Notes under the pieces: model-generated
Seen by the model: only the letters and a program-made list of their open reading frames with translations
Told to the model about the DNA's origin: nothing
Databases searched by the model: none
Shown here: piece by piece, positions 15,153 to 43,739 of the stretch
Numbering within the stretch: position 1 is the stretch's first letter
Layout: each line of letters begins with the position of its first letter
Source: a virus
DNA length: 64,000 nt
Reading direction: 5' to 3' (one strand)
IMG/VR virus record: IMGVR_UViG_3300045988_148355
Span: 58,966 to 122,965 of that record
Translations under genes and position numbers: made by a program

Positions 15153-15476
15153 TTATCTAAATGGATTTTTCCATCGTCGATTAATTTCTTCATAGCCTTT
15201 TTTAGGAAAGTATAAAACTTCACCATTTTTAAAAGTTAAATTATCTTTATTCATTATTTTAATTTGATTTAAATTAATAATTAAACTTGGTGGGATAAAG
15301 ACAAAATCTGGATGGTAAACTAAAGTCCCTATATAATTTTTAAAAGAAGTTTTTAAAGTTTTACTATTTAAAACCTCATTTTCTAAATGGCAACATAAAT
15401 TTCGTTTTTGGATGTCAGCATATAATACTTTATTCAAATCAATTTTTATTTCTCCATTAGGAGTGTCTAAATATTT
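15153..15476 (-). CDS. LytTR DNA-binding domain, reading frame offset -1 relative to the upstream REC domain ORF
   Basis: Track ORF 15153..15437 shows LytTR signatures: LYADIQ..., FVFIPPSLIINLNQI..., TFKNGEVLYF. Its frame is open upstream to ~15476, where the domain begins (EIKIDLNKVLY). Confidence 0.5.
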   Translation of the reverse strand, partial: KYLDTPNGEIKIDLNKVLYADIQKRNLCCHLENEVLNSKTLKTSFKNYIGTLVYHPDFVFIPPSLIINLNQIKIMNKDNLTFKNGEVLYFPKKGYEEINRRWKNPFR

Positions 15477-15808
15477 TTATATTCACGTCTTTTTTCTTCT
15501 CTAATTTCATGTAAAATAGAAAAAATTTTTTCTTTATTAACAGGTTTTTTGACAAAATTAAATGCTTTTACTTCATAAGAAGCCACTCCATAATTTATTT
15601 GAGAGGAAACAAAAATTATTTTTCCAATATAGCTATTTACTCTTAAGAGATGAGCTATTTCAATACCATCCATTTTTTTAAATGTAATTCCTAAAAAAAT
15701 TGCATCATAATCAATATTAGAGTTAATTAATTTTTCAGGATCGGTAAATTTATATACATATCCTGGTAAATTAAAATCTTTAAAATACTGATTTATTATT
15801 TCTTCCAA
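15446..15808 (-). CDS. response-regulator receiver (REC) domain protein; the track ORF ends at TAG 15467, and reading that TAG as sense gives TAA at 15446
   Basis: Motif DAIFLGITFKKMDGIEIAHLLR...IIFVSS matches REC beta3-alpha3, but the phosphoacceptor Asp is replaced by Gly (FLGI). Confidence 0.5.
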
Positions 15809-15949
15809 TGAGTCATTTTGCTAATCGCTATTGTCGCAAACACCTACGATAAAAATTTTAATCACCTTCATTTTGTTTATTTTAGAAAAAATTTTTCTAT
15901 CTTTATATTCTTTCTACATTATAATTATACAAAAATTTTTAAATATTGT

Positions 15950-16100
15950 AAAATAAAAAATTATAAAGTGTCAAATTTATTTAATTTTAAGTAAGTGAAA
16001 TTTTTATCCAAAAAGTGTCAGTAATTATAATATATTTACACAAAATAAAAGTTATATATTAATGAAAGGAAAAGATAAAACCTTTCATTAATATATTTCT
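15950..16100 (+). promoter_or_regulatory. AT-rich divergent promoter region with a repeated aaagtgtca motif and a hairpin immediately upstream of the RBS
   Basis: Intergenic region between the - strand regulator and the + strand genes. Candidate -10 TATAAT at ~16027. Hairpin tgaaagg...cctttca at ~16061-16088. Confidence 0.25.
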
Positions 16101-16114
16101 CCGGAGGTAATAAC

Positions 16115-16561
16115 ATGAATACTTATGGTTATCCATAGCAGTAGTATCCAATAGGTAATAATAGACCTATTTATGGAACAACTGCTACACCTGTGATTCA
16201 AAACAATACTGCATAGCGAATTAGACCTGTTGCTTCTTTAGAAGAGGTTCGAGCTATGAGTATAGATTTTGATGGTTCAGTTTTTTATTTTCCCGACTAT
16301 GCTAATCGTAGAATTTATACAAAACAAATAAATATGGATGGAACGGCTTCTATTAATATGTATGAATTAAAGGAAATCCCGAATTCTTCTTAGCCTAACA
16401 ATGATTATATAACACGAGAAGAATTCAATACTACTCTAACTTCTATTAAAGAAGTATTCGCATAGATCATGGGATCTAATAACGCGGTTGCGCCGTCTCA
16501 GGGGGCGGATTAGCCAGCTCAATAGCAACCAGTAGAGAGCAAACCGCAGTTTAATTTTTAA
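16115..16561 (+). CDS. Gln-rich hypothetical protein (YPQQQYP and PAQQQPVE once TAG is read as Q); 8 in-frame TAGs
   Basis: RBS ggagg then ATG. The frame is open to TAA 16559 only if TAG is read as sense. Confidence 0.45.
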
Positions 16562-16573
16562 GGAGAGTTTCAA

Positions 16574-16822
16574 ATGATGCAATCAATGAATCCAATGCAG
16601 ATTATTGCTATGATTAAAAACGGTCAAAATCCATAGCAATTAGTTTTATCTATGCTTGAAAATCAAATGGGTGGAACGCCAATGGGTAATAATTTATTAC
16701 AAATGGCACGGAACGGTCAATCCGATGACATTGAAAAATTTGCTCGTAATTTGTTTGAATCAAGAGGCTTGAATTTCGATAAAGAATTTAATAGTTTTAA
16801 GTCCCAAATGGGGTTTAAATAA
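16574..16822 (+). CDS. small hypothetical protein (82 aa, one TAG)
   Basis: RBS aaggagag then ATG ATG. Stop TAA 16820. Confidence 0.4.
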
Positions 16823-16848
16823 ATAAAATTATAGAAAGAGGTTTTGTT

Positions 16849-17730
16849 ATGTTTAATTACAATTATCCGATGAGCACGCCGAATTATTCATTATCTGATA
16901 TTGCTGCGGCTTCTGGAAATGGCTATCGTAATAATGATGGCGGAATGTGGGGAGACGGAGCATGGTGGATTATTATCCTGTTCTTATTCTGCTTCAATGG
17001 TTGGGGCGGTAATGGCTGGGGTAATAATGGTGCTAATGGTTCTGGTTTCCAAGGCACTACAACCAGAGAAGAAATTGGTTATGGCTTTAACATGAGCGAT
17101 CTTAAATCTGGGGTTAACGGTTTAGCTTCTAGCCTTTGTAATGGTTTTAGTGGAGTAAATACTAATCTTTTAAGTGGCTTTGCTAATCTTGCTGAAACTA
17201 ATAATGCTAATACTCGCACTTTACAGAGTGATATCTGTAATATGGGTATGAATAATATGCAAAATACCTTTAGTATCACTCAGGCTATTAATGCTGATAC
17301 TGTAGCAAGTATGCAGAATACTAATAATTTAACTCAGCAATTAAATAATATGGCAGCTACTAATGCTCAATGTTGCTGCGAGAATAAACAGTTAATTCAA
17401 TCTAGCTTTGCTGATCTTAATTACAATCTCGCTAGTATCGCTTGCCAGAATCGTTAGGCTACCGTTGATGGTGTCCGCGATATTATTGACAACAATAATG
17501 CTAATATGCGTTCTATTCTTGACTTCCTTGTTCAAGATAAAATTGAGACTCTTACCAGCGAAAATAGCACTCTTAAAAATTAGATTTCTCAAAATCTTCA
17601 AAATGCTTATCTTATTGATCAGTTGTCTCCAAAAGCAACTCCTGCTTATATTGTTGCTAATCCTTATACCGGTGTTAGCTATACCAGTTATGGATGGGGA
17701 TATGGTTCAGGATGCGGTTGCAATTCCTGA
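16849..17730 (+). CDS. Gly/Asn-rich structural protein (GWGGNGWGNNGANGSG) with a Cys-rich C-terminus; two TAGs; TGA 17728
   Basis: Track ORF 16849..17457 continues in frame through TAGs at 17455 and ~17581. Confidence 0.45.
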
Positions 17731-17751
17731 TTGAAGAAAGAAGGTTAAATT

Positions 17752-18174: not shown

Positions 18175-18187
18175 GGAGGTTTTTTAA

Positions 18188-18425: not shown

Positions 18426-18734
18426 ATGACATATGATTATGATTGGGAAGATTATGATTATGATGAGCATGAATATGAAATGCCAACGAGTGGAAAATCT
18501 CATGAAACCCATGATAGTAGAGAAGGGCGTAGTGGTATTCATAGAAAGATGTATATAGAAGCCAAAGAACTTCATAAAGATAAGAGTGTTTAGATAAAAG
18601 AATTAGATAAGTATCTTCAAGAATTAAGCTCTGATATAGTAGAAATGATTGAAGATGCATCTAATGATGAACGTTCTTATATGGAGAAGAAAATTTAGGC
18701 TTTAGCATCTAAAATTGGATCTATGAATGGTTAA
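18426..18734 (+). CDS. acidic hypothetical protein (two TAGs)
   Basis: ATG 18426. Same frame as track ORF 18351..18593. Open through TAGs to TAA 18732. Confidence 0.35.
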
Positions 18735-19026
18735 TATTAATAATAGGAATTGGAGGATACTATTAGTATCTTCCAATCATCCTATGTTGATGCGACCTTC
18801 TGGAATATATACTTTAGGTTCTTGCGATGATCCTACTTCAACAATTTATATTAATGAAAATGTTAGTAATAAAAAATTAAAAAAAGTATTAGCACATGAA
18901 CTAACTCACGCTGCTATTTTTAGCTATAATATTTCATTAAAACCAGAAGAAGAAGAATTGATTGCGGATTTGGTGGGAACTTATGGTGAAGAAATTATAA
19001 ATAATACTAATCTTTTATTTAAATAG
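18727..19026 (+). CDS. SprT-like zinc metallopeptidase domain protein (HELTHA motif); ends at TAG 19024 or, with TAG read through, at TGA 19045
   Basis: HExxH motif in the context VLAHELTHAAIFSY. Confidence 0.4.
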   Translation: MVNINNRNWRILLVSSNHPMLMRPSGIYTLGSCDDPTSTIYINENVSNKKLKKVLAHELTHAAIFSYNISLKPEEEELIADLVGTYGEEIINNTNLLFK

Positions 19027-19034
19027 ATAAAAAA

Positions 19035-19080
19035 AATAAGGGAATGAAACTATTTTTGTTTCATTCCCTTATTTTTTTTT
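19035..19080. terminator. bidirectional rho-independent terminator
   Basis: Hairpin aataagggaatgaaac / gtttcattcccttatt followed by a T10 run, between convergent genes. Confidence 0.6.
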
Positions 19081-21694: not shown

Positions 21695-21775
21695 CGTTAT
21701 ATAATCTCCTATCTATTTCATAGAAAAATTATATCACAAATTTTCTTTTTTGTCAAGTTTTAAATTAATAATGTT

Positions 21776-22228
21776 CTAATTGCGGGAACCGCGCAAAGGT
21801 AAAGTAATATCCCTTTCCTTTTGGATATATGGTCCATCAATTAGATAATCAGCGGTTTTTAGTATATTCTTAATTCTAATATTATTACTATTCTTTAAAT
21901 CATCGTAAACATATCCAGTCCATATATATATTTTAATGTTTGGATATATTTTTTTAATTTCAGTAATAACTAAATTAGTTAAAAATTCGTTTTCAGGGCA
22001 GAGAGGTTCTCCACCCATAATACAAAGATTGCGCTCAACATTATTTGCATTAATAGCAGTAATTAATTCATCTAATACTTTATTAGTAAATTCTTTACCG
22101 CCATTAAAATCCCACGTTTCAAGATTCTGACATCCTTCACAATGGTGCGGACACCCTTGTGTAAAAAATGATACACATACTCCGGGTGCCGCTGCCAAAT
22201 CATTCTTTATAATTCCTGCATATTTCAT
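21776..22228 (-). CDS. nrdG: anaerobic ribonucleotide reductase activating protein (radical SAM); terminates at TAG 21776
   Basis: Cluster CPHHCEGC matching CxxxCxxC. Size matches NrdG. Readthrough of the TAG would add 13 low-complexity codons before a TGA. Confidence 0.75.
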   Translation of the reverse strand: MKYAGIIKNDLAAAPGVCVSFFTQGCPHHCEGCQNLETWDFNGGKEFTNKVLDELITAINANNVERNLCIMGGEPLCPENEFLTNLVITEIKKIYPNIKIYIWTGYVYDDLKNSNNIRIKNILKTADYLIDGPYIQKERDITLPLRGSRN

Positions 22229-24495
22229 TCTAATGCTCCTGTATGTTTTACTCTTGCTTCGACTTCTTTTTGTTTACCCCAGTTAAAAGCAGTTTTATAA
22301 TTGCCTGTAAGATAGCCAGTTACACGACGTAATTGTTGAATATTGTGGCTCCCGCACTCAGGACAAGAATCATTAAATTCATCACAATAACCACATTCAA
22401 GGCAAGTATCATTAGGAACATTTACTGCGAAATAAGGAATATCTTTATCCATTGCATAATTAACGATAGTTTCAAGAGCATCAATATTATGTTTTACAGT
22501 AGAATCAAGTTCGACATAGGTAATACATCCCGCAGAAGAATAACCAGTTAACTCAGATTCGATATCAATTTTATCAAAAGGACTCATTTCTTTCCATACT
22601 GGAACGTGAATACTATTGGTAAAAAATTCTTTATCACTAACATTAGGAATTTCGCCATATCTTTCTTTAAATTTTGTCATAGCTGTATAACATAAATTTT
22701 CTGCGGGCGTATAGTATACACCAAAATTTAATTTATATTTTTCTTTATATTCAGCGCATCTTTCTTTAAATAATTGTTCAATTTGTTTAGCTAATTCCAT
22801 TCCTTCTGAAGTGGTATGGTCTTTACCAATGAGAATTTGAAGAGTTTCTGCCAAACCTAACTGACCAATAGCAAGAGTTCCATGTTTAAGAGCAGAACGA
22901 ATTCCCTCTTCTGGGATATAGCCTGCCATAACATTATTTTCATACATAAATTTCGCGGAGCCTGGATCTTGAGAACAAATCCATTCAAAACGTTCCATTA
23001 ATTGAATACGTGCTTCATTGATTTTTCTATCGAGTAAAGACATAAATCGTTCTACGCCAATTTTAGTCCGCTCTTCTTGAGACAATGATTTATAGTCATC
23101 CCAATTATCATTTTCATTTAGAGTAACGGCCATCATTGCAAGAGTTGGAAGAATAATAGTAACTGGACAAATATTTCCACGTCCATCTTTAAGCTGGCCG
23201 AATCCATTAATATCCCATCCATTCGCAGTTCTACATCCCATTGTGGAAAAATAAGTGCGAGGATCATTAATATCATATCCCGCATTACCAGACCAATCAA
23301 CATTTGCATAATTAGGATAAAGGCGTCTCGCGGTGCTTTCTAATGCTAATCTATATAAATCATAGTTAGGATCACCAGGTTTACGGTTAACACTTTTCAT
23401 ACATTGGAAAATTCCACAGGGAAAAATTGAAGTCTTATGCAATTTACCAAGACCTTCAATGGAGACGTCTAATAATGCCTTAGTTACCATTCTACCTTCA
23501 GACTTGGTGCAAGTGCCATAGTTAATGCTTGTAAATGGTAATTGGTTACCACTACGAGATTGTAAAGTATTAAGATTATGATAAAGACCTTCTGCAGCTT
23601 GATGAGTCTCACGAGTAGTCATTTTCATAGCATACTTATATGCTTTTGGAAATGATTTATAAAAATCATCATCAATAGGAGTTTCTTTACTATAACAACC
23701 ATCATACTTACTCATATCTAATCCTTCATATAAAAATTCAATACCATCATTGAAATGTTTAAAGAAAGATTTTCTTACATAAGGAACCATAGTCCAATCT
23801 AAGTGAGTGGCACTAACTCCGCCAAACTAACAAAGACTTTGGATTTGAAAAATAACAGCAATTAATTGAAATGCTGTATTAATTGAGCCTGCTGGACGAA
23901 CATCTGCTTGACGAGTATTAAATCCATTAGCAAGCAAATCATCAAAAGGAATACTTAAACAGTTATGAGAACCGACATAATAAGAATCAAGATCGTGAGT
24001 ATAAATAATATTATCAATATGGTTCTTACGAGCCATAGGTGAAAGTAAATAATCAAGTGCAAGTTGTTTGGTGACAACACTACTTGCTTCACCTATACGA
24101 CCACCAAATGAATGTTCATCAACGTTAGCATTTTGATTTTTTACATTATTACCATCAAGTTTTTCACGAATGGCTTTAATAAAATCATCTTTTTTATTAC
24201 GAGCAACTTCTTTCTTATATCTATATCTGATATAAGCACGAGCAACATCGCGTCGCTCAGAACGCATTAGATAATCTTCAATCCAATCTTGAAGATCTTC
24301 TACTCCAACACTTCCATCAGGGAAATGATTTATTTGTCTTTCAATGTCTTCTGCGATATCTTTTGCGGTATCATCTTCATATAGTTTACCATCAACTTCA
24401 ATAAATGCTTTATTTATTGCGTTAATAATTTTCTTTTTATTAAATTGAGTTATACTTCCATCACGTTTAATAATATACAATTTTTTTGCCTCCAA
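22225..24495 (-). CDS. nrdD: anaerobic ribonucleoside-triphosphate reductase NrdD, a single ~755-codon gene with one in-frame TAG at 23827-23829
   Basis: Track ORFs 23827..24495 (ATP-cone, N-terminal region) and 22225..23790 (glycyl-radical C-terminus, CxxC and RVTGY) are in the same frame. They are joined by TAG plus 12 sense codons. Stop TGA overlaps the nrdG start. Confidence 0.85.
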
Positions 24496-24554
24496 ACTAA
24501 ATATAGTAGTTCTTTTAGAATATTCTACTATATTTAGGTTTTGTTAGTAAATAA

Positions 24555-25160
24555 TTATTTATCTTGGTCCATTTCCGCCCATTGCTTAACTTTTTGAGTT
24601 AAAAGGTTAACAATATTATTGTAATCTTCTAATGTTTCATTTGTCATAATATTGCATTTAATATCATTCATTAGTTGAAATTGAATTTCATCAGTAGTAT
24701 ATCTTCTAATGATTTCATTTACATCAGGGTTTTTTTCTCTATTTAATTGTCTAATTAAGCGTGTCTTTCCTTTAGCGGTGATATAATATATCTCCAATTC
24801 AATTCTATCATCTTTAAGAAGACTTATAATTCCTTCAGGATTAAAAACACCAATATTAACTTTACTATCAGACAAACTATCAATACTTGTACCATAATAC
24901 CAATTATTAAAAGAAGTGGTTTCTAACATTTTATTTTCATCAATTAAAGTTAAAAACTGATCATCTGAAACAAAATGATAATTTTTGTCTGCTATTTCTT
25001 TTTCACGCTTCGGGCGCGTAGTGTGGCTTATAATAGGATTTAAATATTCTTCTAAGTGAGAAAAGGTAGCCATCATTAGGCTATCTTTTCCCGCACCAGA
25101 TTTTCCACATAATGCAATAATTTTATACATCTTCTTCAATTCCTCCTTGATAACGAGCAT
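24555..25160 (-). CDS. guanylate kinase-like nucleoside monophosphate kinase
   Basis: P-loop GKSGAGKDS and the TTRPKR...YHFVS signature. Confidence 0.65.
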   Translation of the reverse strand: MLVIKEELKKMYKIIALCGKSGAGKDSLMMATFSHLEEYLNPIISHTTRPKREKEIADKNYHFVSDDQFLTLIDENKMLETTSFNNWYYGTSIDSLSDSKVNIGVFNPEGIISLLKDDRIELEIYYITAKGKTRLIRQLNREKNPDVNEIIRRYTTDEIQFQLMNDIKCNIMTNETLEDYNNIVNLLTQKVKQWAEMDQDK

Positions 25161-28100
25161 CTTTTAAAACTAAATCGCCATTGGATAAAATTTCATCAAT
25201 TTTATATAATTGATGTCCTCCAGAAGAAGCATATTTTTTTGACATGAAATTATCTCCATTGCGGATTCCAGAGACTACAATCATATTTCCGCGATTAAAC
25301 CAAGATTTTTCAACAATATGTTTGGTTCCATCTGCACCGCGCTCTGAAATTTGTTTATCAAACAAACTAAAATATTCTTTTCTAAATTTTACTTCTACAG
25401 GACCAGTAGTAGTAAGAATAGTTACGGTGCTTTTAGTTTTATTTTTTGCAATACAAGTCCCGCAAATCTTAAATAATTTATAAATATGAATAGTATGATT
25501 TCCTTTAGTGAAACTTCTGTCAACTATTGGATCTTCTGGAAGTTTAAAGAAATCTACAAATCCATATTTATCATTGTTAATATTATTCAATTCATGAGTA
25601 TGATAATAATAACAAAGAACTTCCATTTCCCAAGCAGATAAATTATTTTTATTAGCATATTTATTCCAATCATCTTTAAATATTTTTATATTTAGATTAT
25701 TTAAAATTTCATCTTTGTTATTAGCAATCCAAGTGCGAAATATATCCATCCATTTTTGGTATATACCATTCCAAATATTCTCACTTAAAGAATAATTAGT
25801 TCCATCAAATTGAATATTATTATCTTCTCCAATTTCTACTAAGAAATTAATAGCTCGTTCATCAAGTTGATATAGACCATTATTTTTTGTAGTTTTACAA
25901 ATTGCTTTTAAATATCTATTAAATTCATAAATACGGCGAGCCATAATTTGACTTTCATTTTCTTCTGGAAGAAGATCATACTTCATAAGTCCGCCCATAT
26001 TTTGAAGAGTAATTCTTTTCTTTTTATCGCAAGTTTCCCAAATATACCAAACCATTAATTCTTTTCTATCCATCATATTATCAAAGGCTCCGCCTTTAAT
26101 AAGAGAAATCATAGCTTGTTTACCTGGCTTAATACGGTATAAAAATTCTTTAGGATTTGAATAAGGACGATTAGCAATGATTGTATTAACTAATTCATCA
26201 CCAACATTCAGCATACCTTTTAATCCGAAAAGAATTTTATTATTTTCAATATCAGGAGCAAATCCAAATTTAGATTTGTTAATATCAGGAAGACCTACTT
26301 CAATTCCTGCTTTTTGAATGTCACTAATGGCCTTAGCAATTTTTCCATAATCAGTGGCCGCGGTTTTGCGGATTTTACCACTTTTATCAGGGAGATCTTC
26401 AAATGTTACTCCATTAGCTAAATCATCACCTTCAGGAGCATAAATATCTACAATCTCTTCTTCACTATTATCTTCAAGGGAACCGCTATTGACAATTAAG
26501 CAAGCAGTATCCCAATAGATGGGATTAAAATGAATTACTAAGTAAATCATTTGAATTGCCACAAATGAATAAGGAAGAGAGTGATTAAGACTAAATGCGT
26601 ATCCTAATTGAGGAGCAACGGCGATTTCCCAAAAGTATTCAGCAGATTTTTCATTATCAAATTTACTAAATACTTGCTCTCTCAATTGTGGAATTTTAGC
26701 CATTTGTTTTTTAGCAACAATCTTACGCGCAGTATTAGCTTCACCAAGAGTAAAATGAGCCACATCCATAAGGATTTCCATCATTTGCTCTTGGATAGGG
26801 CAACATCCATAATATTTATCACAATGTTTATGCATCTTATCAATTAATTCTTGTGGAAGATGCTGAGCTTTCATTTCATTATCAAATACTTTAATGCCTG
26901 AATGCTGAATGCGATAATATCTATCCTGCTGTGATTCCTTACCTTTTTCAGACATAAGACGCATCATAGCATTGGCTGCTGTCATTTCCATAGGGTCTTG
27001 GGGTTTAAGGCGTTTCGCAATCGCCAAACCAACACCCGTAGAAAATTGGAATACATCTAATACATCACCGGCAGCGAGGTGATCCCAAATTGCTTGATCG
27101 GTTGTATCTATTACTTCTGGATGAATATATTTATTATAAAATTCTCGCAAAGATAATTCTGGAATCTGTTTATCTTTTAGAAGTAATTGATAACAAGTAA
27201 TAATTTTGTCAGAAGCTTCAGTTACGAGGAAATCATATTTTGTATCTCCTGCGGCTTCCGCTTTATGAAGATCCCAACAAGTAATCATATCTCCGCTAGG
27301 AGTTCTCATAAATGATGCGGTATCAAATGGATCGTCACCATATAAAATAACGCCAGAAGCATGAGAAGAACGTTTATTAACCATTCCTTCAATATATACA
27401 ATAATATCCAAAAGACCAGGATATTGATTTACTTCTCGAATAAATGCTTGAACGGGTTTACGGTCTTTTTCCTCATTACCATAAATAACATCATGGATAG
27501 GCCATAAAAATCCACGCTCTTGAGGAATTAACGAAGACATATATTGAGCATTATCAACATCGATTCCTTCTGGAAATTCTTCACTTCTATATCCACGACA
27601 AGCAGTTAAAATACTCTGTTTAGTGCCTTCTGTTCCAAACGTAGCAACTTGAACCAGTCCTAATTCTCCGCGTTCTTTTCTAATTGCTTTAAAAATTGCG
27701 GGGCGTTTACTTGGAGCAAGGTCAATATCAATATCAGGTAATTCTGCGCGCTCCTTATTTAAGAATCTCCAATAAGGAAGTCCCCAACGAATTGGGTCTA
27801 ATTGAGTAATACCTAAAAGATAATTAGATAAAAAACCAGTCGCAGAACCACGTCCAGGTCCTACAATACTTCCACACTCCCAAAATAAATTAATATAGTG
27901 TTGGAAAGTATTAAAATAAGCGAAAAGACAGTCATCTAATTTTTCACCAATATCTTTTATAATATCAGCTTCAATTTCAAGTCGTTCCAAATAATTTTTA
28001 TTATCATAAAGTTGCTTTTCTTGTAAAGCTTTAATACATTCATTTACCCAATATCGTTCTTGAATATTGTCGCTATTAATTAAAGAACAGATAATTGGAT

Positions 28101-29136
28101 ATTTATCGAACCAGTTTGAAGGAATAAATCCTTTCTTATAATCCTTTACTTCAACTTTTGGAATAATTTGTTTTCTTTCTAATGAATAAAAAGAAATTTT
28201 ATTTTGAATCTCTTGAGTGTTATCAAGAATCCAATTTATCAATTCTTTTCCTGTTTTATTACCTTTATCCCAATCATTAGCATAAGGTTCCATTAATTCA
28301 AGAATTTCATCACTTGTCATTAAGTAAGTAAATTTATAGAAATCGTCAACTTCTCTTTCTCCTGGCTTAGAAGTAAGATATGCTTTATGAATGGGTCTAT
28401 CTTCTTTAGTTAAATAATGCGCATCTGTTCCAACTACCATTTTTAAATCAAATGCCTTGGCGATTTGATAAATTTTATGATTTACAATTATTTGCTCAGC
28501 ATCAGTAGACGGCGCACATTCAAGATAAAAATCATCTTTTCCAAATACTTTAATACAAAAATTGATATAATCAATTATTTGATTATAATATTTAGTTTGA
28601 GTTTCAATATCTTTATTTAATTCAGCTTGGAACATTGGTAAAATACAACTACCAAGTTCTCCACCAATACAGGCAGTCGTTGCTATAACATGCCCTTTAT
28701 ATTGTTCCATTACCATTTCAAGTTCACTTTTTAAAGTAGGAACTCGTTCCATTCGTCTATCAACATAACTATGAATCCAAGCAATAGAACTTAATTCTCT
28801 TAATGCTTTATGTCCAAGAGCATCTTTAGCAATAAGAATAAAGTGGTAATATTTTTGTCCGCTATCTCTTGTATCAGTAAGATAAATTTCATTACCAAGA
28901 GCAATAGTAAAATCAGGATTTTTTTCTCTTAATTTCTGCGCATATTGATTTACTTCCATATGCGCAGAAAGGCACTCATGATCTGTAATAGTTATTCCTG
29001 ATAGCCCTAATTCTATTGCTTTGTCAATAAGGGCTTGGGGTCTATTAATACAATCTAATAAACGCAAATTAGAATACATTGTATGATTGTGAATCCCGAA
29101 ATATGATCTCATTCGCACATTCCTTTCATCTTTCAT
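25123..29136 (-). CDS. dnaE: DNA polymerase III alpha subunit (C-family, DnaE-like) with an N-terminal PHP domain; zero TAG codons in 1,337 codons
   Basis: PHP motifs GIHNHTMYS and DHECLS. Catalytic PDIDIDL motif. Confidence 0.85.
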   Translation of the reverse strand: MKDERNVRMRSYFGIHNHTMYSNLRLLDCINRPQALIDKAIELGLSGITITDHECLSAHMEVNQYAQKLREKNPDFTIALGNEIYLTDTRDSGQKYYHFILIAKDALGHKALRELSSIAWIHSYVDRRMERVPTLKSELEMVMEQYKGHVIATTACIGGELGSCILPMFQAELNKDIETQTKYYNQIIDYINFCIKVFGKDDFYLECAPSTDAEQIIVNHKIYQIAKAFDLKMVVGTDAHYLTKEDRPIHKAYLTSKPGEREVDDFYKFTYLMTSDEILELMEPYANDWDKGNKTGKELINWILDNTQEIQNKISFYSLERKQIIPKVEVKDYKKGFIPSNWFDKYPIICSLINSDNIQERYWVNECIKALQEKQLYDNKNYLERLEIEADIIKDIGEKLDDCLFAYFNTFQHYINLFWECGSIVGPGRGSATGFLSNYLLGITQLDPIRWGLPYWRFLNKERAELPDIDIDLAPSKRPAIFKAIRKERGELGLVQVATFGTEGTKQSILTACRGYRSEEFPEGIDVDNAQYMSSLIPQERGFLWPIHDVIYGNEEKDRKPVQAFIREVNQYPGLLDIIVYIEGMVNKRSSHASGVILYGDDPFDTASFMRTPSGDMITCWDLHKAEAAGDTKYDFLVTEASDKIITCYQLLLKDKQIPELSLREFYNKYIHPEVIDTTDQAIWDHLAAGDVLDVFQFSTGVGLAIAKRLKPQDPMEMTAANAMMRLMSEKGKESQQDRYYRIQHSGIKVFDNEMKAQHLPQELIDKMHKHCDKYYGCCPIQEQMMEILMDVAHFTLGEANTARKIVAKKQMAKIPQLREQVFSKFDNEKSAEYFWEIAVAPQLGYAFSLNHSLPYSFVAIQMIYLVIHFNPIYWDTACLIVNSGSLEDNSEEEIVDIYAPEGDDLANGVTFEDLPDKSGKIRKTAATDYGKIAKAISDIQKAGIEVGLPDINKSKFGFAPDIENNKILFGLKGMLNVGDELVNTIIANRPYSNPKEFLYRIKPGKQAMISLIKGGAFDNMMDRKELMVWYIWETCDKKKRITLQNMGGLMKYDLLPEENESQIMARRIYEFNRYLKAICKTTKNNGLYQLDERAINFLVEIGEDNNIQFDGTNYSLSENIWNGIYQKWMDIFRTWIANNKDEILNNLNIKIFKDDWNKYANKNNLSAWEMEVLCYYYHTHELNNINNDKYGFVDFFKLPEDPIVDRSFTKGNHTIHIYKLFKICGTCIAKNKTKSTVTILTTTGPVEVKFRKEYFSLFDKQISERGADGTKHIVEKSWFNRGNMIVVSGIRNGDNFMSKKYASSGGHQLYKIDEILSNGDLVLKDARYQGGIEEDV

Positions 29137-31103: not shown

Positions 31104-31247
31104 AATATTTTTCTTCTTTCTTCATTTATATTTATATAATACCATATTTTAATTATTTAGTCAAATTTAAAATATAATAAACTCATTATTTGTGTTGTCA
31201 GCTTTAATTGTCATAGGCGGTCCAAAAGAAATAGTTGTTGTATGTGG

Positions 31248-31610
31248 CTAATTAGATTCAGAAAAAATTTCAGATTCAAGTTTTTCTCCAAAAATTTCTA
31301 AATCACTTTTTTCATTTGACTTGTCGGTTTCTTCGTCTGTTCCCGGCCCGAGCAACCACCCTTCTTCTTTATAGCCAGTGGTAGAAGCTTTAATCCATAA
31401 GTCTGCGATTTCATCTAATACCTTGAACAAATCGTCTTTAGAAGAAATCCCCAGTTCATTTAATTGTTTATTTATTCTATTGTTCACTTCATTATATGTA
31501 TACCCATATGATCCTAAAGATTCTAAAATTTTATAAAGTGCTTTACCACTTTCTTGTGGGGTTGCCTAATATACCATATTAATGTCATCAGCATAATAAT
31601 TAAATTTTCC
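31248..31610 (-). CDS. hypothetical protein; ends at TAG 31248 (readthrough would add 27 codons to TAA 31167)
   Basis: The track ORF extends upstream through a TAG to an ATG with RBS ggag. Confidence 0.3.
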
Positions 31611-31625
31611 CATAATCTACTCCAT

Positions 31626-40224: not shown

Positions 40225-40320
40225 TATGTTATTTCTCCTTATTTGTTTTAATTATTATCTCTTTAAGTATTTCTTCTAAATTTAGTATATTACAAAAATC
40301 ATCATATAAATTAACTTTAG

Positions 40321-40351
40321 CGCGATGACCTCTTATTGAGAGGTCATCGCT
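40321..40351 (-). terminator. rho-independent terminator (12-bp stem)
   Basis: Inverted repeat gcgatgacctct-tatt-gagaggtcatcgc. Confidence 0.5.
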
Positions 40352-40371
40352 ATTTAATGGCTAATTCATGA

Positions 40372-41319
40372 TTAGAATTTAAAACCTTCTGTAGCAGTGG
40401 ATGCGACAGTAGTAGCAGTAGTAGCATTCTGCTTAGAAGCTTTATATTCATCTTGACGCTGCTTCAAAGTAGCAAGGTAAGTCTCACGTGCGGCCATAGC
40501 TTCAGTAAGCTCTTTTGCAGTAATAGAACTTTCATCATCCCAAACATAAGGCTCCTTGGCACCACCGGTAATGACAAAATCCTTACGAGTACTCTGAACC
40601 TCACGAACATTATCGTCACCGAACGCAGATTCTTCACGAATCTCGCGCTTAATTACTTCAGATACCTGACGACCCCAAAGCTTTGTAAATACAGGCTCAG
40701 AAGGAGAGGCTCCAAGACCTTCGTAATAAGCCATAGCTCCAGGATTAGTAGCTGTAAACTCAACAGGAAGCAAAGACTTGCGGAAATCAAAAATTGCTCC
40801 CTTAACAATTACCTTTTCAGGAACATTATGCTCTTCATCAGCATCAATATGAGTTACATTAGTGATAATCATATCACACTTAAAAGTATTGCGCTGTTTT
40901 TCATCATCAATAAGAGTGGTAGTAGTATGAACAAATCCGCCCTCATTGCGCTTAGTGCTTACAAGCTCTTCCTTACCATTACGGTCAGAATAAAATTCAT
41001 TAAGACCAATCGCGGAATCAACACGAAGCTTAGCAGCTTTATCTTCTCCATCAGCCATATAATTACCAATTGTACCATCAATAATATTCTGAAGAATACT
41101 ATATGTAGCATTGGGAGTACCCTTGGTAGTGGTTTGAGTTACATAAGTAAAGTGAACCTGGACGATATTAGTAAGAGCATTATCAGTAGCAATACTAATA
41201 GTACCAGAAATAAAAGGAGTGCCGGGATTCTTAGAATTTGGTCCGGTTACCTTATTTTCCAAAGCATGTTCGTACAAGATACCTTCAATATGAGTAGCAT
41301 TTTCCATTACTTTCTTCAT
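40372..41319 (-). CDS. hypothetical protein, possibly an abundant DNA-binding/SSB-like partner of Sak4; GC-rich codon usage
   Basis: Track ORF. Function assigned from position only. Confidence 0.3.
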   Translation of the reverse strand: MKKVMENATHIEGILYEHALENKVTGPNSKNPGTPFISGTISIATDNALTNIVQVHFTYVTQTTTKGTPNATYSILQNIIDGTIGNYMADGEDKAAKLRVDSAIGLNEFYSDRNGKEELVSTKRNEGGFVHTTTTLIDDEKQRNTFKCDMIITNVTHIDADEEHNVPEKVIVKGAIFDFRKSLLPVEFTATNPGAMAYYEGLGASPSEPVFTKLWGRQVSEVIKREIREESAFGDDNVREVQSTRKDFVITGGAKEPYVWDDESSITAKELTEAMAARETYLATLKQRQDEYKASKQNATTATTVASTATEGFKF

Positions 41320-41333
41320 AAATAAATTTCTCC

Positions 41334-41711
41334 TTAATTAAATAAATTCAATAAATTAATATTTTTTCCTTTTTCTGTTAAAGTATAAATAATTGGATCT
41401 TGACTAACTTTTTCTACGAAACCATCAGATACTAATTTGCGCATGGAACCCGCAACTCCACGGCTAGACACACCGAGATATTCGGCAATTTCTCTTGATT
41501 TAACAAGAGGAATATCTTTATTATTATCTTGCATCCATTTAATAATGGCTTTTCCGCCCTCAGTAAATAGAGGCTTTTCAGTTTCTTCTTTAGCTTTTAA
41601 CGCTTCCCAATAGATACGAGCATCTTCACTCATTACTACTGGATAGCGATTTTCATTAGTGGCAACAATTAATTCTTCAACATAATCAATAAATGCTTGT
41701 TTCTTACTCAT
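41334..41711 (-). CDS. winged-helix DNA-binding protein (putative transcriptional regulator)
   Basis: HTH-like segment REIAEYLGVSSRGVAGSMRKLVSDGFVEK. Confidence 0.4.
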   Translation of the reverse strand: MSKKQAFIDYVEELIVATNENRYPVVMSEDARIYWEALKAKEETEKPLFTEGGKAIIKWMQDNNKDIPLVKSREIAEYLGVSSRGVAGSMRKLVSDGFVEKVSQDPIIYTLTEKGKNINLLNLFN

Positions 41712-41872
41712 TTTAAAAAGTTTATAACCTTTCTTTATCTTATATAAATATTATATAATATTTATTTAGAAAAATCAAGTTATGATTAATTTACCAATAG
41801 TTCTTCCGCATAAGGAAGAGTTTCAATCCATCTACAGAATTCTCTCCATTCGGGAAGACGATGGTTTTTTCT

Positions 41873-42448
41873 CTAAATATATATGTTTCTTAAACATCTA
41901 TAATTAGTAGTTAATCTTGCGGTAAGCAAAAATCCAGCGGGATTAGAATATAGAATTTCAAGATATTTTTCTTTTCTAATTTCCTCTAACTGCTCAAGCA
42001 TTTTAATTTTCTCATTTTTATTTTCAGTTTCACAATGCTTAATTCTATCAATAATACTTAAAAGTTTATTATAAATATCAACTTTCTCACGCATTATTTC
42101 AATGATTCTTGAATCAACATATTCATTATATTGTTCATTTAAATCAAATTTAGTAATGCAATGCATTGTGGATTGTGAAGATACAAATTCAAGGAATCTA
42201 TATCTTTCTGCTTCGACCCAAGCCTTATTGGAAAAAGTTAAATCAAAATTAACTCTAATACCAGTTAAAAATTGAGCATGAGCCATATTGCCACTTTTTG
42301 TGGCAGATACAAGATTCTAACATCTTGTCATATCTTTATCATTAATTGGATGTTGCTCAGTATCCGTTCTCATTGGATATCCAGAAGCAACCATACTTTC
42401 TGGCAAGTCATAGACTCTCACATTACTGACGATTTTATTATTTTTCAT
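41873..42448 (-). CDS. hypothetical protein (191 aa, one TAG)
   Basis: Track ORF 41873..42286 extends upstream through a TAG to an ATG overlapping the upstream gene's stop. Confidence 0.3.
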
Positions 42449-42450
42449 AA

Positions 42451-42729
42451 TCAATCCTCATTACTTAAAGTATATCCACTTAGATTGTGCCCAAGAGAAC
42501 GAACAAAACAATCAAGTTCATCAATAAATACCATACTGCCTTTTGGATAATTTCCATTTATATAGTCATGATATGAAATAAAATTAATTCCAGAAATTCC
42601 GTATCCTTCTGACTTAATTCTCATAGCATTAGGATTAGAACAAGCAATAATAGCATTTTTCTCTTTAGCTAACAGTATTAATCTACTCGTTTTTCCTGTT
42701 CCACGTTTATCAATTATTCTATACATCAT
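42451..42729 (-). CDS. small P-loop NTPase-like protein
   Basis: Motif DKRGTGKTSRL. Confidence 0.3.
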   Translation of the reverse strand: MMYRIIDKRGTGKTSRLILLAKEKNAIIACSNPNAMRIKSEGYGISGINFISYHDYINGNYPKGSMVFIDELDCFVRSLGHNLSGYTLSNED

Positions 42730-43151
42730 TTTATACTATACCCGAATTCCTTAGCTTTAAAATAGTCTTGCCAATAATCTTCTCGCGCATCTAACTCTTC
42801 ACGAGAGCATTCTTCTATTACTTCAAAACTAAAATTTTCTACTCCAATAGCTAACATAGCAGGATAAAGTTTATTGCGAGTGGCGGGTTCTGCACCAATT
42901 CCGCGTTTAATATGTTGTTTCCAACGTGCAGAAAGATCAACTGCTTGACCCACATAACACATTTGATTTTCTAAATTAGTAATTTTATAAATTCCTGTGT
43001 GGATTCCAGAGCCAATTACTCGACCAATTAAATCTGTAGTTGGTTTTTCATAATAACTTTTCCAAATTACTTTATTTAAAATATCTTTATCACGAAGTTT
43101 CGGCTCAATAGAGCGAAGAAGACTGATTTCATCAATATCTATTTGAGGCAA
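42726..43151 (-). CDS. GIY-YIG nuclease domain protein (GIYKITNLENQMCYVGQA...RWKQH); in frame with the upstream coiled-coil ORF across TAG 43152
   Basis: GIY-YIG motifs. TTG start immediately after the TAG. Confidence 0.55.
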   Translation of the reverse strand: MPQIDIDEISLLRSIEPKLRDKDILNKVIWKSYYEKPTTDLIGRVIGSGIHTGIYKITNLENQMCYVGQAVDLSARWKQHIKRGIGAEPATRNKLYPAMLAIGVENFSFEVIEECSREELDAREDYWQDYFKAKEFGYSIK

Positions 43152-43739
43152 CTATAATTTATAGAAATCAGCTTGGTTTTTAATTTCTTCGGCACGTTTC
43201 GCAGCATCAACTGCGGCCGCGACTTCTCTACTATGTAATTGGATTTCTTCATCTAATTTATTTAATTCTTCTTTTTTAGAATCAATTAAATTAGATAATT
43301 CTAAAGAACAATCAACAAGAGTTGATTGATATTCATTTTCATATTCTTCTTTAGCTTTTGTATATTTAAATTCTTGTTTATTTAAATCATATTCAAGACG
43401 AACACGAGCATTTTCCATTGATTGCTGATAGAAAATATCCGCTGATTGCTTTGCTTGATTCTATAAAGAATTTAAACTATTTTCAACTTCGTCTCTTTTG
43501 GACTAAAGAATATTTAAATTATTTTCTACTTCTTCTTTTCTGGAAGTAATACTTTTTACTGCCGTTGATAATATTGTATACTAATCATCTAAATCTGAAT
43601 TTTTATATTCAAGTTCTTTATTTTGTTTTATTATTTCTTCATTAAGCTTTTGAATATTATTTAGTCGTGGACGTAAAATAAAATATATTAAAAATCCACC
43701 AATAATAAACGCCAGTATAGCAATTATTAAAGTAAGCAT
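43152..43739 (-). CDS. membrane-anchored coiled-coil protein (N-terminal TM helix MLTLIIAILAFIIGGFLIYFIL) ending at TAG 43152, in frame with the downstream GIY-YIG domain
   Basis: Track ORF 43152..43418 extends upstream through three TAGs to an ATG at ~43737. No TAA/TGA until the end of the GIY-YIG ORF. Confidence 0.4.

What the first reader, a model, noticed from the sequence alone, without database searches (positions are those of the whole stretch)
15153..43739. ORFs that end exactly at TAG: stop, readthrough or fusion? This includes a possible membrane-anchored coiled-coil::GIY-YIG fusion
NrdG (21776), the REC-domain ORF (15467), the SprT-like protein (19024), ORF 31248 and the coiled-coil ORF at 43152 terminate at TAG, not TAA or TGA. 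For NrdG the readthrough extension is 13 low-complexity codons, so TAG probably still terminates or gives a minor extended isoform. At 43152 the TAG is followed in frame by a TTG and a complete GIY-YIG nuclease domain (42726..43151). Sense decoding would therefore yield a 338-aa protein with TM helix, coiled coil and nuclease, which is an unusual architecture such as a membrane-tethered nuclease or superinfection-exclusion factor. Otherwise this is a two-gene arrangement relying on TAG ambiguity.
Basis: partly seen in the sequence, partly recalled or inferred. Interest (0 to 1): 0.65.

Follow-up and report, generated by a model that had tools for sequence, protein, structure and literature searches.

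The report
TAG means glutamine in this phage
The window comes from a gut phage that reads TAG as glutamine, so these ORFs do not stop at TAG; four of the five TAGs are ordinary glutamine codons (one joins a membrane anchor, a long helix and a nuclease into a single conserved protein), and the fifth is a side effect of a 2-base frameshift.

Summary
With TAG read as sense the window is 93.5% coding and every gene ends in TAA or TGA. This is a TAG-to-glutamine (code 15) phage, a known phenomenon.

- **nrdG:** the TAG is the invariant Gln of the RGSxNQ motif. It is CAA or CAG in 59 of 80 relatives, and all relatives continue 6-22 codons further.
- **HExxH ("SprT-like") protein and ORF 31248:** both TAGs are sense codons followed by conserved tails.
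- **REC ORF:** the TAG is out of frame, created by a +2 insertion (A3 to A5) that splits a REC-LytTR regulator which is intact in 17 relatives.
- **43152:** the TAG lies inside one 337-aa protein. Relatives have CAA, GTA or ACA at that codon and carry TAG inside the nuclease core.
- **The fused protein:** about 280 cluster representatives share an N-terminal transmembrane segment, a helix of about 187 residues and a C-terminal I-TevI-type GIY-YIG domain. This resembles the SNIPE defence nuclease, but no DUF4041 domain is detected.
- **Decoder:** a tRNA with anticodon CUA lies about 40 kb beyond the window in 11 of 11 close relatives.

This is a new member of a known kind, of modest interest.

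The parts
42726..43739 (-). One gene for a 337-aa protein: N-terminal transmembrane segment, a helix of about 187 residues, a small helical domain and a C-terminal GIY-YIG nuclease. It has four in-frame TAG (Gln) codons and a TGA stop at 42726-42728.
43152..43154 (-). Junction TAG (codon 196). It lies in the loop between the long helix and the small helical domain and is decoded as Gln.
   Evidence: Relatives have CAA (L001, L238), GTA (L237) or ACA (L004) at this codon. In the AF2 model the helix ends at residue 188 and the next domain starts at 199.
43461..43583 (-). Three further in-frame TAG codons of the same gene (43581-43583, 43503-43505, 43461-43463), all in the long helix.
   Evidence: They align with Q in close relatives.
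43671..43736 (-). N-terminal hydrophobic transmembrane segment (about aa 2-23), followed by R-P-R.
   Evidence: Sequence. 68 of 71 family representatives have an N-terminal 19-aa window with Kyte-Doolittle hydropathy of at least 1.6.
42729..42995 (-). GIY-YIG catalytic domain of I-TevI type (aa 249-337). Residues invariant in the family: G249, I250, Y251, Y262, G264, R272, H276, E320.
   Evidence: Pfam E=1e-9. TIGR01453 68 bits, above the 56 cut-off. Foldseek hit to 1LN0, TM-score 0.80 (normalised to the target), rmsd 1.9 A. Invariant columns.
21734..22228 (-). nrdG, 164 codons. The TAG at 21776-21778 is codon 151, the invariant Gln of the RGSxNQ motif. The true stop is TGA at 21734-21736.
22225..24495 (-). 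nrdD with one in-frame TAG (23827-23829) inside the conserved core.
   Evidence: The TAG aligns with the Q of SSQYGG in PDB 9d3x and with M in 8p23.
18727..19047 (+). The TAG at 19024-19026 is codon 100. The true stop is TGA at 19045-19047.
   Evidence: The site is CAG in L020 and R, K or G elsewhere. All relatives continue past it.
31167..31613 (-). ORF of unknown function (148 aa counted from MGKF...). In-frame TAGs at 31566-31568 and 31248-31250. The 27-aa tail after the second TAG is conserved down to the same TAA.
   Evidence: No Pfam or PHROG hit.
15153..15871 (-). REC-LytTR response-regulator gene split by a +2 insertion. The A-run at 15474-15478 has 5 A's, where relatives have 3. The TAG at 15467-15469 lies in the shifted frame. 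The LytTR half is ORF 15153-15476.
25123..29136 (-). DnaE-like DNA polymerase III alpha (SPbeta YorL-like). None of its 51 Gln codons is TAG. It is the clearest TAG-free, probably early, gene.
   Evidence: (p=4e-5)
3244..10944 (+). 2566-aa ORF with 33 in-frame TAGs. It is the strongest single sign of genome-wide recoding.
   Evidence: 33 of 80 Gln-type codons, p=5e-6

Best explanation
The window is part of a gut phage genome of about 195 kb and 30% G+C, with an SPbeta-like replication module. In it, TAG is a glutamine codon (genetic code 15) and only TAA and TGA terminate translation.

The five sites:
- The TAGs in nrdG, the HExxH protein, ORF 31248 and the gene at 42726-43739 are ordinary Gln codons inside genes.
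- The TAG after the REC domain is an out-of-frame triplet. It was exposed by a 2-base insertion that splits a REC-LytTR regulator gene.
- The coiled-coil and GIY-YIG parts are one protein. It has an N-terminal membrane anchor, a helix of about 187 residues, a small helical domain and a C-terminal I-TevI-type nuclease.

How it is decoded:
- Shown in relatives only: a phage-encoded tRNA with anticodon CUA lies in a large tRNA array about 40 kb beyond the right end of the window.
- Inferred: a host enzyme charges this tRNA with Gln. TAG-free genes (DnaE, GyrA, GyrB, ligase, YorF, AAA_24) can be translated before the suppressor accumulates. TAG-containing genes give full-length products only afterwards.

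Inferred function of the fused protein, at lower confidence (about 0.3): a nuclease held at the cytoplasmic face of the membrane that cuts incoming foreign DNA, as SNIPE does. The confidence value given for this explanation refers to the recoding, the reading of the five sites and the single fused protein, not to this functional guess.
For: Recoding across the window:
- ORF coverage rises from 51.9 to 69.1 kb when TAG is read as sense.
- There are 136 in-frame TAGs. Stops are 57 TAA and 17 TGA, and coding density is 93.5%.

TAG means Gln:
- In alignments of at least 85% identity, window TAG sites are TAG 671 times, CAA 48, CAG 22 and GAT/GAC 14 (the REC artefact). Nothing else exceeds 1.
- Below 85% identity, 43.5% of TAG sites align with CAA, CAG or TAG. 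The figure for control CAA/CAG Gln sites is 48.9%.
- No relative has TAA or TGA at a TAG site inside a genuine gene.

nrdG:
- The site is CAA 29, CAG 30 and TAG 21 times in 80 relatives.
- All relatives extend 6-22 codons further, to a TAA or TGA.
- TIGR02491 scores 135.4 bits over model positions 1-154 of 154 when TAG is read through. Truncated at the TAG it scores 124.5 bits over positions 1-147. The cut-off is 126.1.

HExxH protein and ORF 31248: a relative has CAG or CAA at each site, and the tails are conserved.

REC: GAATATAAAAATATTTAGAC in the window against GAATATAAATATTTAGAT in relatives. The downstream ORF is a LytTR domain.

Fusion:
- Full-length homologues of 322-337 aa exist.
- The junction codon is CAA, GTA or ACA in relatives, and relatives have TAG inside the GIY-YIG core at Q265 and Q275.
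- 281 cluster representatives match at E<=1e-30. Nearly all of the best 150 carry the match at the C-terminus of proteins of 280-392 aa.
- The AF2 model has mean pLDDT 91.6.
- Synteny is conserved: gyrB, gyrA, ligase, two small genes, the fusion, YorF, AAA_24, DnaB.

Suppressor tRNA:
- A tRNA with anticodon CTA lies between tRNA-Val and tRNA-Tyr in 11 of 11 relatives. It scores 57.8 bits on the Rfam tRNA model.
- Where they overlap, relatives are mostly 87-96% identical to the window in DNA and colinear (about 81% in part of the structural region).

TAG use differs between genes (chi-square p=6e-11). DnaE has 0 of 51, the 2566-aa ORF 33 of 80 and the endolysin 9 of 25.
Against: - No tRNA or other Rfam family was found inside the window itself. 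The decoder is inferred from relatives.
- There is no protein-level evidence for this genome. The amino acid is inferred from alignments.
- Suppression by a tRNA is rarely complete, so some termination at TAG is expected, especially early in infection.
- The functional reading of the fused protein rests on architecture alone. Pfam DUF4041 and T5orf172 were not detected in 15 members at E<=5, and no PD-Lambda-1 model was among the PADLOC hits.
- Conserved placement of the gene inside the replication module could equally point to a role in replication, recombination or host-DNA degradation.
Confidence: 0.92

Rival explanations
1. TAG has two meanings over the course of infection. Before the suppressor tRNA accumulates it terminates, giving NrdG(1-150), a 54-aa membrane stub of the fused gene, and other truncated products. 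Later it is read as Gln. Some of the truncated forms, such as NrdG lacking its last 14 residues, would be functional isoforms.
For: - TAG-free against TAG-rich genes differ strongly.
- The published model for recoded phages proposes a switch from standard to alternative code during infection (bioRxiv 10.1101/2021.08.26.457843).
- Truncated NrdG still scores 124.5 bits against the NrdG model.
Against: - TAGs show no enrichment near gene ends (15 of 136 in the last tenth, p=0.38).
- The nrdG site is an invariant Gln followed by conserved residues in all 80 relatives.
- nrdD, the partner of nrdG, has a TAG at codon 223 of 756. It cannot work when truncated, so an early NrdG isoform would have no partner.
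Confidence: 0.12
2. TAG remains a true stop at the five named sites, with at most minor readthrough. The coiled-coil ORF and the GIY-YIG ORF are two genes, the second starting at TTG 43149-43151.
For: - Under the standard code the ORFs end there.
- Public records do annotate a stand-alone 141-aa 'GIY-YIG nuclease family protein' (MCI7444382.1, WP_444210283.1, DAU68657.1).
Against: - The junction codon is CAA, GTA or ACA in relatives, and relatives carry TAG inside the nuclease core.
- The upstream 'gene' would itself be cut by three more TAGs.
- Nearly all of the best 150 family representatives carry the N-terminal extension.
- The tails after the other TAGs are conserved.
- The 141-aa database entries are what standard-code gene callers produce on recoded DNA.
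Confidence: 0.02
3. TAG encodes an amino acid other than Gln, for example pyrrolysine. ARAGORN labels the CTA tRNA 'tRNA-Pyl'.
For: ARAGORN's label for the CTA tRNA.
Against: - 'Pyl' is only ARAGORN's default name for that anticodon.
- Among near-identical relatives TAG exchanges almost only with CAA and CAG (70 of 75 changes once the REC artefact is set aside).
- TAG occupies invariant Gln positions: NrdG RGSxNQ, GIY-YIG Q275 and NrdD SSQYGG.
- No pyl genes were seen in the annotated parts of the window. This was not an exhaustive search.
Confidence: 0.02
4. The REC ORF is a real stand-alone receiver-domain gene, and the LytTR ORF is a separate gene. They would be either a functional split or joined by programmed frameshifting at the A-run.
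For: Both halves remain open reading frames. The shift lies in an A-run.
Against: - 17 of 17 relatives encode a single REC-LytTR protein.
- The sequence T-AAA-AAT is not a canonical X-XXY-YYZ slippery heptamer (read; the heptamer rule is from my own knowledge).
- A 2-base homopolymer difference is also what an assembly or sequencing error looks like.
Confidence: 0.1

Closest known systems
TAG-to-Gln (genetic code 15) recoded gut phages: crAss-like, Lak, the Sapphire, Jade, Agate and Garnet clades, and phAss-1 (bioRxiv 10.1101/2021.08.26.457843; PMC9523058; PMC10607447)
   Same: - In-frame TAG in conserved genes, aligning with Gln.
- TAA and TGA as the only stops.
- A phage-encoded tRNA(CUA).
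- TAG enriched in structural and lysis genes and avoided in some replication genes.
- Relatives have genomes of about 190-197 kb, close to the roughly 200-kb sizes reported for the Jade and Sapphire clades.
- The 90-nt form of the CTA tRNA closely resembles the second Sup-CTA tRNA of phAss-1.
   Different: - No megablast match to any record in the phage collection.
- The replication module is SPbeta-like: the DnaE-like polymerase is 39% identical to YorL, and Pfam YorF and YorH families hit.
- Membership of a named clade such as Sapphire was not tested. The only hint is that one relative comes from run SRR1747062 and the Sapphire representative is named SRR1747018_scaffold_13.
SNIPE / PD-lambda-1, a membrane-bound GIY-YIG nuclease that cuts phage DNA during injection (PMC13190303)
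   Same: - Order of parts: N-terminal single transmembrane segment, elongated helical region, C-terminal GIY-YIG nuclease.
- Positive residues just after the transmembrane segment predict a cytoplasmic nuclease, the topology shown for SNIPE.
- The published SNIPE model is that tethering to the membrane keeps the nuclease away from the cell's own DNA.
   Different: - No DUF4041 domain was detected, and no PD-Lambda-1 model was among the PADLOC hits.
- The nuclease is of I-TevI type (TIGR01453, PDB 1LN0).
- The protein is 337 aa, against about 500 aa for SNIPE.
- It is encoded by the phage itself, at a fixed place in its replication module, not in a bacterial defence island or prophage.
- Its function is untested.
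I-TevI-type GIY-YIG homing endonucleases
   Same: - The catalytic domain matches in fold and motifs: GIY, YxG, then R 10 residues and H 14 residues after the second Tyr, and E 48 residues after the Arg.
- It is 38-42% identical to the catalytic domains of three free-standing GIY-YIG endonucleases in this same window: 53248-53997, 50611-51300 and 49264-49950.
   Different: - The domain is at the C-terminus, not the N-terminus.
- There is no linker or DNA-binding domain (NUMOD or HTH).
- It is preceded by a membrane anchor and a helix of about 187 residues.
- Its genomic position is conserved and syntenic rather than sporadic.
RmuC (a comparison from my own knowledge, not tested here)
   Same: N-terminal membrane anchor, then a coiled coil, then a C-terminal nuclease.
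   Different: RmuC's nuclease has the PD-(D/E)xK fold, not GIY-YIG. No sequence similarity was seen.

Membership tests
Code 15 (TAG-to-Gln) recoded phage | In-frame TAG in many genes, including conserved ones. Reading TAG as sense restores long ORFs. | tested here: met
   136 TAGs in 43 of 74 genes. A 2566-aa ORF has 33. RecJ, DnaB, NrdD and a RecD-like helicase are restored.
Code 15 (TAG-to-Gln) recoded phage | TAG positions align with glutamine in homologues. | tested here: met
   Codon tally. NrdG invariant Gln. GIY-YIG Q275 and Q265. NrdD Q in PDB 9d3x.
Code 15 (TAG-to-Gln) recoded phage | TAG is not used as a terminator; genes end in TAA or TGA. | tested here: met
   57 TAA and 17 TGA stops. 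No C-terminal excess of TAG. No relative has TAA or TGA at a genuine TAG site.
Code 15 (TAG-to-Gln) recoded phage | A suppressor tRNA with anticodon CUA. | tested here: inconclusive
   Absent from the window. Present in 11 of 11 close relatives about 40 kb beyond the window's right end. Published surveys find one in only 35-40% of recoded phages.
Code 15 (TAG-to-Gln) recoded phage | Peptides with Gln at TAG positions. | not testable with these tools
   Needs proteomics.
SNIPE / PD-lambda-1 | N-terminal transmembrane segment. | tested here: met
   A hydrophobic stretch of about 22 residues followed by RPR. 68 of 71 family representatives have such a segment.
SNIPE / PD-lambda-1 | Central DUF4041 domain. 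| tested here: not met
   No DUF4041 hit in 15 family members at E<=5 or in the window protein.
SNIPE / PD-lambda-1 | C-terminal GIY-YIG nuclease with a catalytic Glu. | tested here: met
   Pfam and TIGR01453 hits. E320, R272, Y251 and Y262 are invariant. The subtype is I-TevI-like.
SNIPE / PD-lambda-1 | A match to the family's defence-system HMM. | tested here: not met
   The PADLOC scan returned only HEase, UzuA, JetC and LmuB models.
SNIPE / PD-lambda-1 | Cleaves injected phage DNA at the membrane. | not testable with these tools
   Needs experiments.
GIY-YIG homing endonuclease (I-TevI type) | GIY-YIG catalytic domain. | tested here: met
   TIGR01453 68 bits against a 56 cut-off. Foldseek hit to 1LN0, E=1e-5, TM-score 0.80 normalised to the target.
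GIY-YIG homing endonuclease (I-TevI type) | N-terminal catalytic domain joined to a C-terminal DNA-binding domain. | tested here: not met
   The domain is at the extreme C-terminus. TIGR01453 matches only model positions 2-87 of 215.
NrdG (TIGR02491 equivalog) | Full-length match above the curated cut-off. | tested here: met
   135.4 bits over model 1-154 of 154 when TAG is read as Gln. 124.5 bits, below the 126.1 cut-off, when truncated at the TAG.
LytTR-type response regulator | REC and LytTR domains in one polypeptide. | tested here: not met
   Split in the window by a +2 frameshift. Intact in 17 relatives.

The most novel reading that the evidence does not exclude
The 337-aa protein is a phage-encoded counterpart of SNIPE. 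It would be an I-TevI-type nuclease held at the inner face of the membrane on a helical stalk of about 187 residues, and it would destroy the DNA of competing phages as it enters. The phage's own replicating DNA would be spared because it is not at the membrane. The gene's four TAG codons would delay production of the protein until the phage has switched the cell to TAG=Gln.

The family has about 280 clusters at 50% identity. Every member checked at the DNA level sits in a TAG-recoded phage, including the distant phAss-1, where the gene lies just upstream of the suppressor tRNAs.
Probability: 0.25. Interest if true: 0.55.

Novelty: new member of a known kind. Interest (0 to 1): 0.3.

Why it matters
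- **Annotation.** Standard-code gene calling splits this genome into fragments and creates false proteins. The 141-aa 'GIY-YIG nuclease family protein' in NCBI records is the tail of a 337-aa membrane protein. The phAss-1 GenBank record also lists only fragments of its homologue. Any functional or ecological reading of such contigs needs code 15.
- **Biology.** The window adds a well-resolved example of uneven TAG use, with none in DnaE and the gyrase subunits and many in structural and lysis genes. This fits the proposed timing role of recoding.
- **A lead.** It brings out a large, uncharacterised phage protein family whose layout parallels a recently described membrane-bound defence nuclease. 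That idea can be tested by experiment.

Tried and rejected
- Megablast of 22225-29136 against the phage collection found no match.
- A PDB sequence search with NrdG matched only the N-terminal part of pyruvate formate-lyase activase. It says nothing about the C-terminus.
- The first AF2 run, with 15 sequences and X at the TAG positions, gave low confidence for the C-terminal half. It was replaced by a 71-sequence alignment.
- The afdb50 fold library was unavailable, so SNIPE-like AlphaFold models could not be compared.
- The suppressor tRNA was not within 10 kb of either window end, of nrdG or of the fusion gene in relatives. It was found only after three further walking steps to the right.
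- DUF4041, T5orf172 and PD-Lambda-1 membership of the fused protein was sought and not found.
- I considered and rejected programmed frameshifting at the REC A-run. The site is not a canonical slippery heptamer, and relatives simply have A3.
- TGA recoding was rejected. Reading TGA as sense does not lengthen the longest ORFs, and 17 genes end in TGA.

Full report
**1. Observation**

Under the standard code the listed ORFs do end at TAG at the stated coordinates. These are 21776-21778 (nrdG), 15467-15469 (REC), 19024-19026 (HExxH protein), 31248-31250 and 43152-43154. The last TAG is followed in frame by TTG and a GIY-YIG domain.

These sites are not special, however.
- Reading TAG as sense raises the summed length of ORFs of at least 100 aa from 51.9 to 69.1 kb. 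It also produces a 2566-aa ORF (3244-10944) with 33 in-frame TAGs.
- A simple gene map with TAA and TGA as the only stops gives about 74 genes covering 93.5% of the window. Stops are 57 TAA and 17 TGA. There are 136 in-frame TAGs in 43 genes, against 577 CAA/CAG codons.
- TAG positions are spread evenly along genes. 15 of 136 lie in the last tenth (binomial p=0.38; KS test p=0.10). TAG close to a gene's end is what chance gives.

**2. TAG means glutamine**

I fetched about 150 loci from close and distant relatives. For every window TAG covered by an alignment I recorded the relative's codon.
- In alignments of at least 85% identity the aligned codon is TAG 671 times, CAA 48, CAG 22 and GAT/GAC 14. 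Nothing else exceeds 1. The GAT/GAC cases are the REC artefact described in section 3.
- Below 85% identity, 43.5% of TAG sites align with CAA, CAG or TAG. For control sites where the window has CAA or CAG the figure is 48.9%.
- No relative has TAA or TGA at a TAG inside a genuine gene. The two exceptions lie upstream of a probable start codon and in a doubtful 59-aa ORF.
- TAGs also restore RecJ (6 TAGs), DnaB (2), NrdD (1) and a RecD-like helicase (1). In NrdD the TAG aligns with the Q of SSQYGG in PDB 9d3x and with M in 8p23.

**3. The five sites**

*nrdG.*
- The TAG is codon 151 in …LRGSRN-TAG-NIINLKLDKKENL-TGA.
- In 80 relatives this codon is CAA 29 times, CAG 30 and TAG 21.
- It is the invariant Gln of RGSxNQ, and every relative continues 6-22 codons to a TAA or TGA.
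- The NCBIfam NrdG equivalog matches residues 2-157 over model positions 1-154 of 154, at 135.4 bits (cut-off 126.1). Cut at the TAG, it reaches model position 147 and scores 124.5 bits, below the cut-off.
- The '13 low-complexity codons' are therefore the real C-terminus.

*HExxH protein (18727-19047).*
- The TAG site is CAG in L020 and Arg, Lys or Gly in others. It is followed by a conserved (I/L/M)K.
- All relatives read on past it.
- The SprT-like Pfam hit is below threshold. DUF2268 and Peptidase_M78 pass.

*ORF 31248.*
- The TAG site is CAA or CAG in L014 and His in L020. It is deleted in four relatives.
- The 27-aa tail (…TISFGPPMxIKADNT..EFIIF) is conserved down to the same TAA.

*REC ORF.*
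- Close relatives and two distant ones encode a single REC-LytTR protein of about 235-250 aa.
- The window reads GAATATAAAAATATTTAGAC where relatives read GAATATAAATATTTAGAT. This is a +2 insertion in an A-run (15474-15478).
- The downstream ORF 15153-15476 is the LytTR domain.
- Whether A5 is a real mutation or an assembly error cannot be decided here.

*43152.* Covered in section 4.

**4. The fused protein**

Evidence that it is one protein:
- Reading through the four TAGs gives a 337-aa protein.
- More than 5,000 database proteins match. The best are single proteins of 322-337 aa on contigs of 100-340 kb.
- At the DNA level all looked-up relatives are themselves recoded. At the junction codon they have CAA (L001, 91% identical; L238, 65%), GTA (L237, 64%) or ACA (L004, 57%).
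- Several relatives carry TAG inside the nuclease core. Examples are RWK-TAG-HIKRG at invariant Q275 and YVG-TAG-A at Q265. The nuclease would not survive if TAG were a stop.

Extent of the family:
- A search of 1.84 billion cluster representatives with the 141-aa C-terminal part gives 281 hits at E<=1e-30.
- Nearly all of the best 150 are 280-392 aa long, with the match at the extreme C-terminus.
- 68 of 71 have an N-terminal transmembrane-like segment.

Structure and catalytic residues:
- AlphaFold with 71 sequences gives mean pLDDT 91.6. The query was P0001, which is 96% identical to the window protein.
- The model has one helix over residues 2-188, a small helical domain at 199-241 and an alpha/beta domain at 249-337.
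- The closest solved structure to the alpha/beta domain is the I-TevI catalytic domain (1LN0). The match has E=1e-5, TM-score 0.80 normalised to the target, and rmsd 1.9 A.
- Invariant residues are G249, I250, Y251, Y262, G264, R272, H276 and E320. Their spacing matches what I remember of I-TevI's catalytic Tyr, Arg, His and Glu (R27, H31, E75). That comparison is from memory.
- TIGR01453 passes its cut-off, but only for model positions 2-87 of 215. There is no DNA-binding domain.
- The nuclease domain is 38-42% identical to three free-standing GIY-YIG homing endonucleases in the same window.

Genomic position:
- The gene sits at a fixed place: gyrB, gyrA, ligase, two small genes, the fusion, YorF, AAA_24, (YorH), DnaB.
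- The distant code-15 phage phAss-1 has the same transmembrane / helix / GIY-YIG ORF with 10 in-frame TAGs. It lies directly upstream of tRNA-Leu, two tRNA-Sup-CTA genes, nrdD and nrdG.
- The phAss-1 GenBank record lists only fragments of this ORF.
- NCBI records hold the truncated 141-aa form as 'GIY-YIG nuclease family protein [Clostridium sp.]'.

**5. How TAG is decoded**

- The window has no tRNA and no Rfam match.
- I walked along relatives, which are mostly 87-96% identical to the window in DNA and colinear with it (about 81% in part of the structural region).
- Nothing turned up within 10 kb of either window end.
- A first tRNA array (Thr, Ser, Ser, Leu, Gly, Lys, Met, Cys) lies about 16-25 kb to the right.
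- A second, larger array follows. In it a tRNA with anticodon CTA lies between tRNA-Val(TAC) and tRNA-Tyr(GTA) in 11 of 11 relatives. This is about 40 kb beyond the window's right end.
- The CTA tRNA comes in two forms, of 73 nt and 90 nt. The longer form has a long variable arm and closely resembles the second Sup-CTA tRNA of phAss-1. It scores 57.8 bits on the Rfam tRNA model.
- Both forms have a mismatched 1:72 pair and G73. From memory, these resemble identity features of bacterial tRNA-Gln. I did not test this.
- Charging with Gln by a host enzyme is inferred.

**6. Pattern of TAG use**

- TAG makes up 19% of Gln-type codons overall, but genes differ strongly (chi-square p=6e-11).
- TAG-poor genes: the DnaE-like polymerase has 0 of 51 (p=4e-5). 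GyrB, ligase, YorF, AAA_24, the SPFH protein and PIN-PhoH have none. GyrA has one, at its extreme N-terminus.
- TAG-rich genes: the 2566-aa ORF has 33 of 80 (p=5e-6) and the endolysin 9 of 25.
- This fits the published view that late genes depend on the code switch.
- Replication genes are mixed. DnaB, RecJ, NrdD, NrdG and the fused nuclease all need suppression.

**7. Comparison with what is known**

- TAG-to-Gln recoding in gut phages is established (bioRxiv 10.1101/2021.08.26.457843; PMC9523058; PMC10607447). This genome is another member.
- Its replication module is SPbeta-like. The DnaE-like polymerase is 39% identical to YorL over 99% of its length.
- Its genome size, about 190-197 kb in relatives, is close to the roughly 200 kb reported for the Jade and Sapphire clades. 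I did not test clade membership.
- The fused protein's layout matches SNIPE (PD-lambda-1). SNIPE is an inner-membrane GIY-YIG nuclease that cuts phage DNA during injection (PMC13190303).
- It fails two SNIPE membership tests. No DUF4041 domain was detected, and no PD-Lambda-1 model was among the PADLOC hits.
- I therefore say it may work like SNIPE but is not a demonstrated member. I put the probability of that function at about 0.25-0.3. Alternatives are host-DNA degradation or a role in replication or recombination.

**8. Verdict**

- Interest is modest. The items worth keeping are the conserved membrane-anchored nuclease family, the annotation errors it exposes, and the broken REC-LytTR gene.

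Noticed in passing
window 15153-15871 (-), A-run 15474-15478: A REC-LytTR response-regulator gene is split by a +2 insertion (A5 against A3 in 15 close relatives). It could be a real pseudogene or split gene, or an assembly error.
   Followed up: yes
window 49264-53997 (-): gyrB is split. The N-terminal 575 aa are at 51452-53179 and the GyrB C-terminal piece is within 50283-50666. A GIY-YIG homing endonuclease (50611-51300) lies between them, and two more flank the region (53248-53997 and 49264-49950). All three carry in-frame TAGs.
   Followed up: partly
window 25123-29136, 45090-48846, 51452-53179, 39229-41319, 56943-58205, 59118-60503 (-): Several large genes are TAG-free or nearly so: the DnaE-like polymerase, ligase, GyrA (one TAG at its extreme N-terminus), GyrB, AAA_24, YorF, PIN-PhoH and an SPFH/Band-7 protein. 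By contrast the 2566-aa ORF 3244-10944 has 33 TAGs and the endolysin 55575-56879 has 9.
   Followed up: yes
window 44142-44170 (-) and 43755-43783 (-): A perfect sigma-70 consensus (TTGACA, 17 nt, TATAAT) lies upstream of gene 43799-44068. A strong terminator-like hairpin with a T-run ends only about 15 nt before the ATG of the fused nuclease gene.
   Followed up: no
relatives L263-L273 (e.g. L270 7133-7222) and L239-L262: Close relatives carry two tRNA arrays, about 16-25 kb and about 33-45 kb beyond the window's right end, with up to about 20 tRNAs. The CTA-anticodon tRNA occurs as two different alleles, of 73 nt and 90 nt, at the same position.
   Followed up: yes
L268 7962-8041; L269 7962-8041: Two relatives also have a tRNA with anticodon TCA (ARAGORN calls it 'SeC'), next to tRNA-Tyr. 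It could be an opal suppressor, although 17 window genes end in TGA.
   Followed up: no
L252 12192-12320; L256 11461-11589; L262 11655-11783; L247 2384-2512: A RAGATH-33 RNA (Rfam RF03102, 123-127 bits, above the gathering score) lies inside the tRNA array. In L256, L262 and L247 it sits directly downstream of tRNA-Leu(TAA).
   Followed up: no
L252 13397-13536: A tRNA-Lys(TTT) carries an insertion of about 69 nt in its anticodon loop. Other relatives have the uninterrupted gene. ARAGORN missed it and the Rfam tRNA model found it (59.9 bits).
   Followed up: partly
L098 5443-6447 (phAss-1, OQ749652.1): phAss-1 encodes the same transmembrane / helix / GIY-YIG protein with 10 in-frame TAGs, immediately upstream of tRNA-Leu, two tRNA-Sup-CTA genes, nrdD and nrdG. 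GenBank annotates only two fragments of it.
   Followed up: partly
window 42726-43151 (-): NCBI, RefSeq and UniRef hold the truncated 141-aa ORF as 'GIY-YIG nuclease family protein' (MCI7444382.1, WP_444210283.1, DAU68657.1). This is a product of standard-code gene calling.
   Followed up: yes
window 31677-32516 (-) and 55575-56879 (-): There are two Phage_lysozyme2-domain genes. One has no TAG and lies inside the replication block. The other also has an amidase domain and carries 9 TAGs.
   Followed up: no
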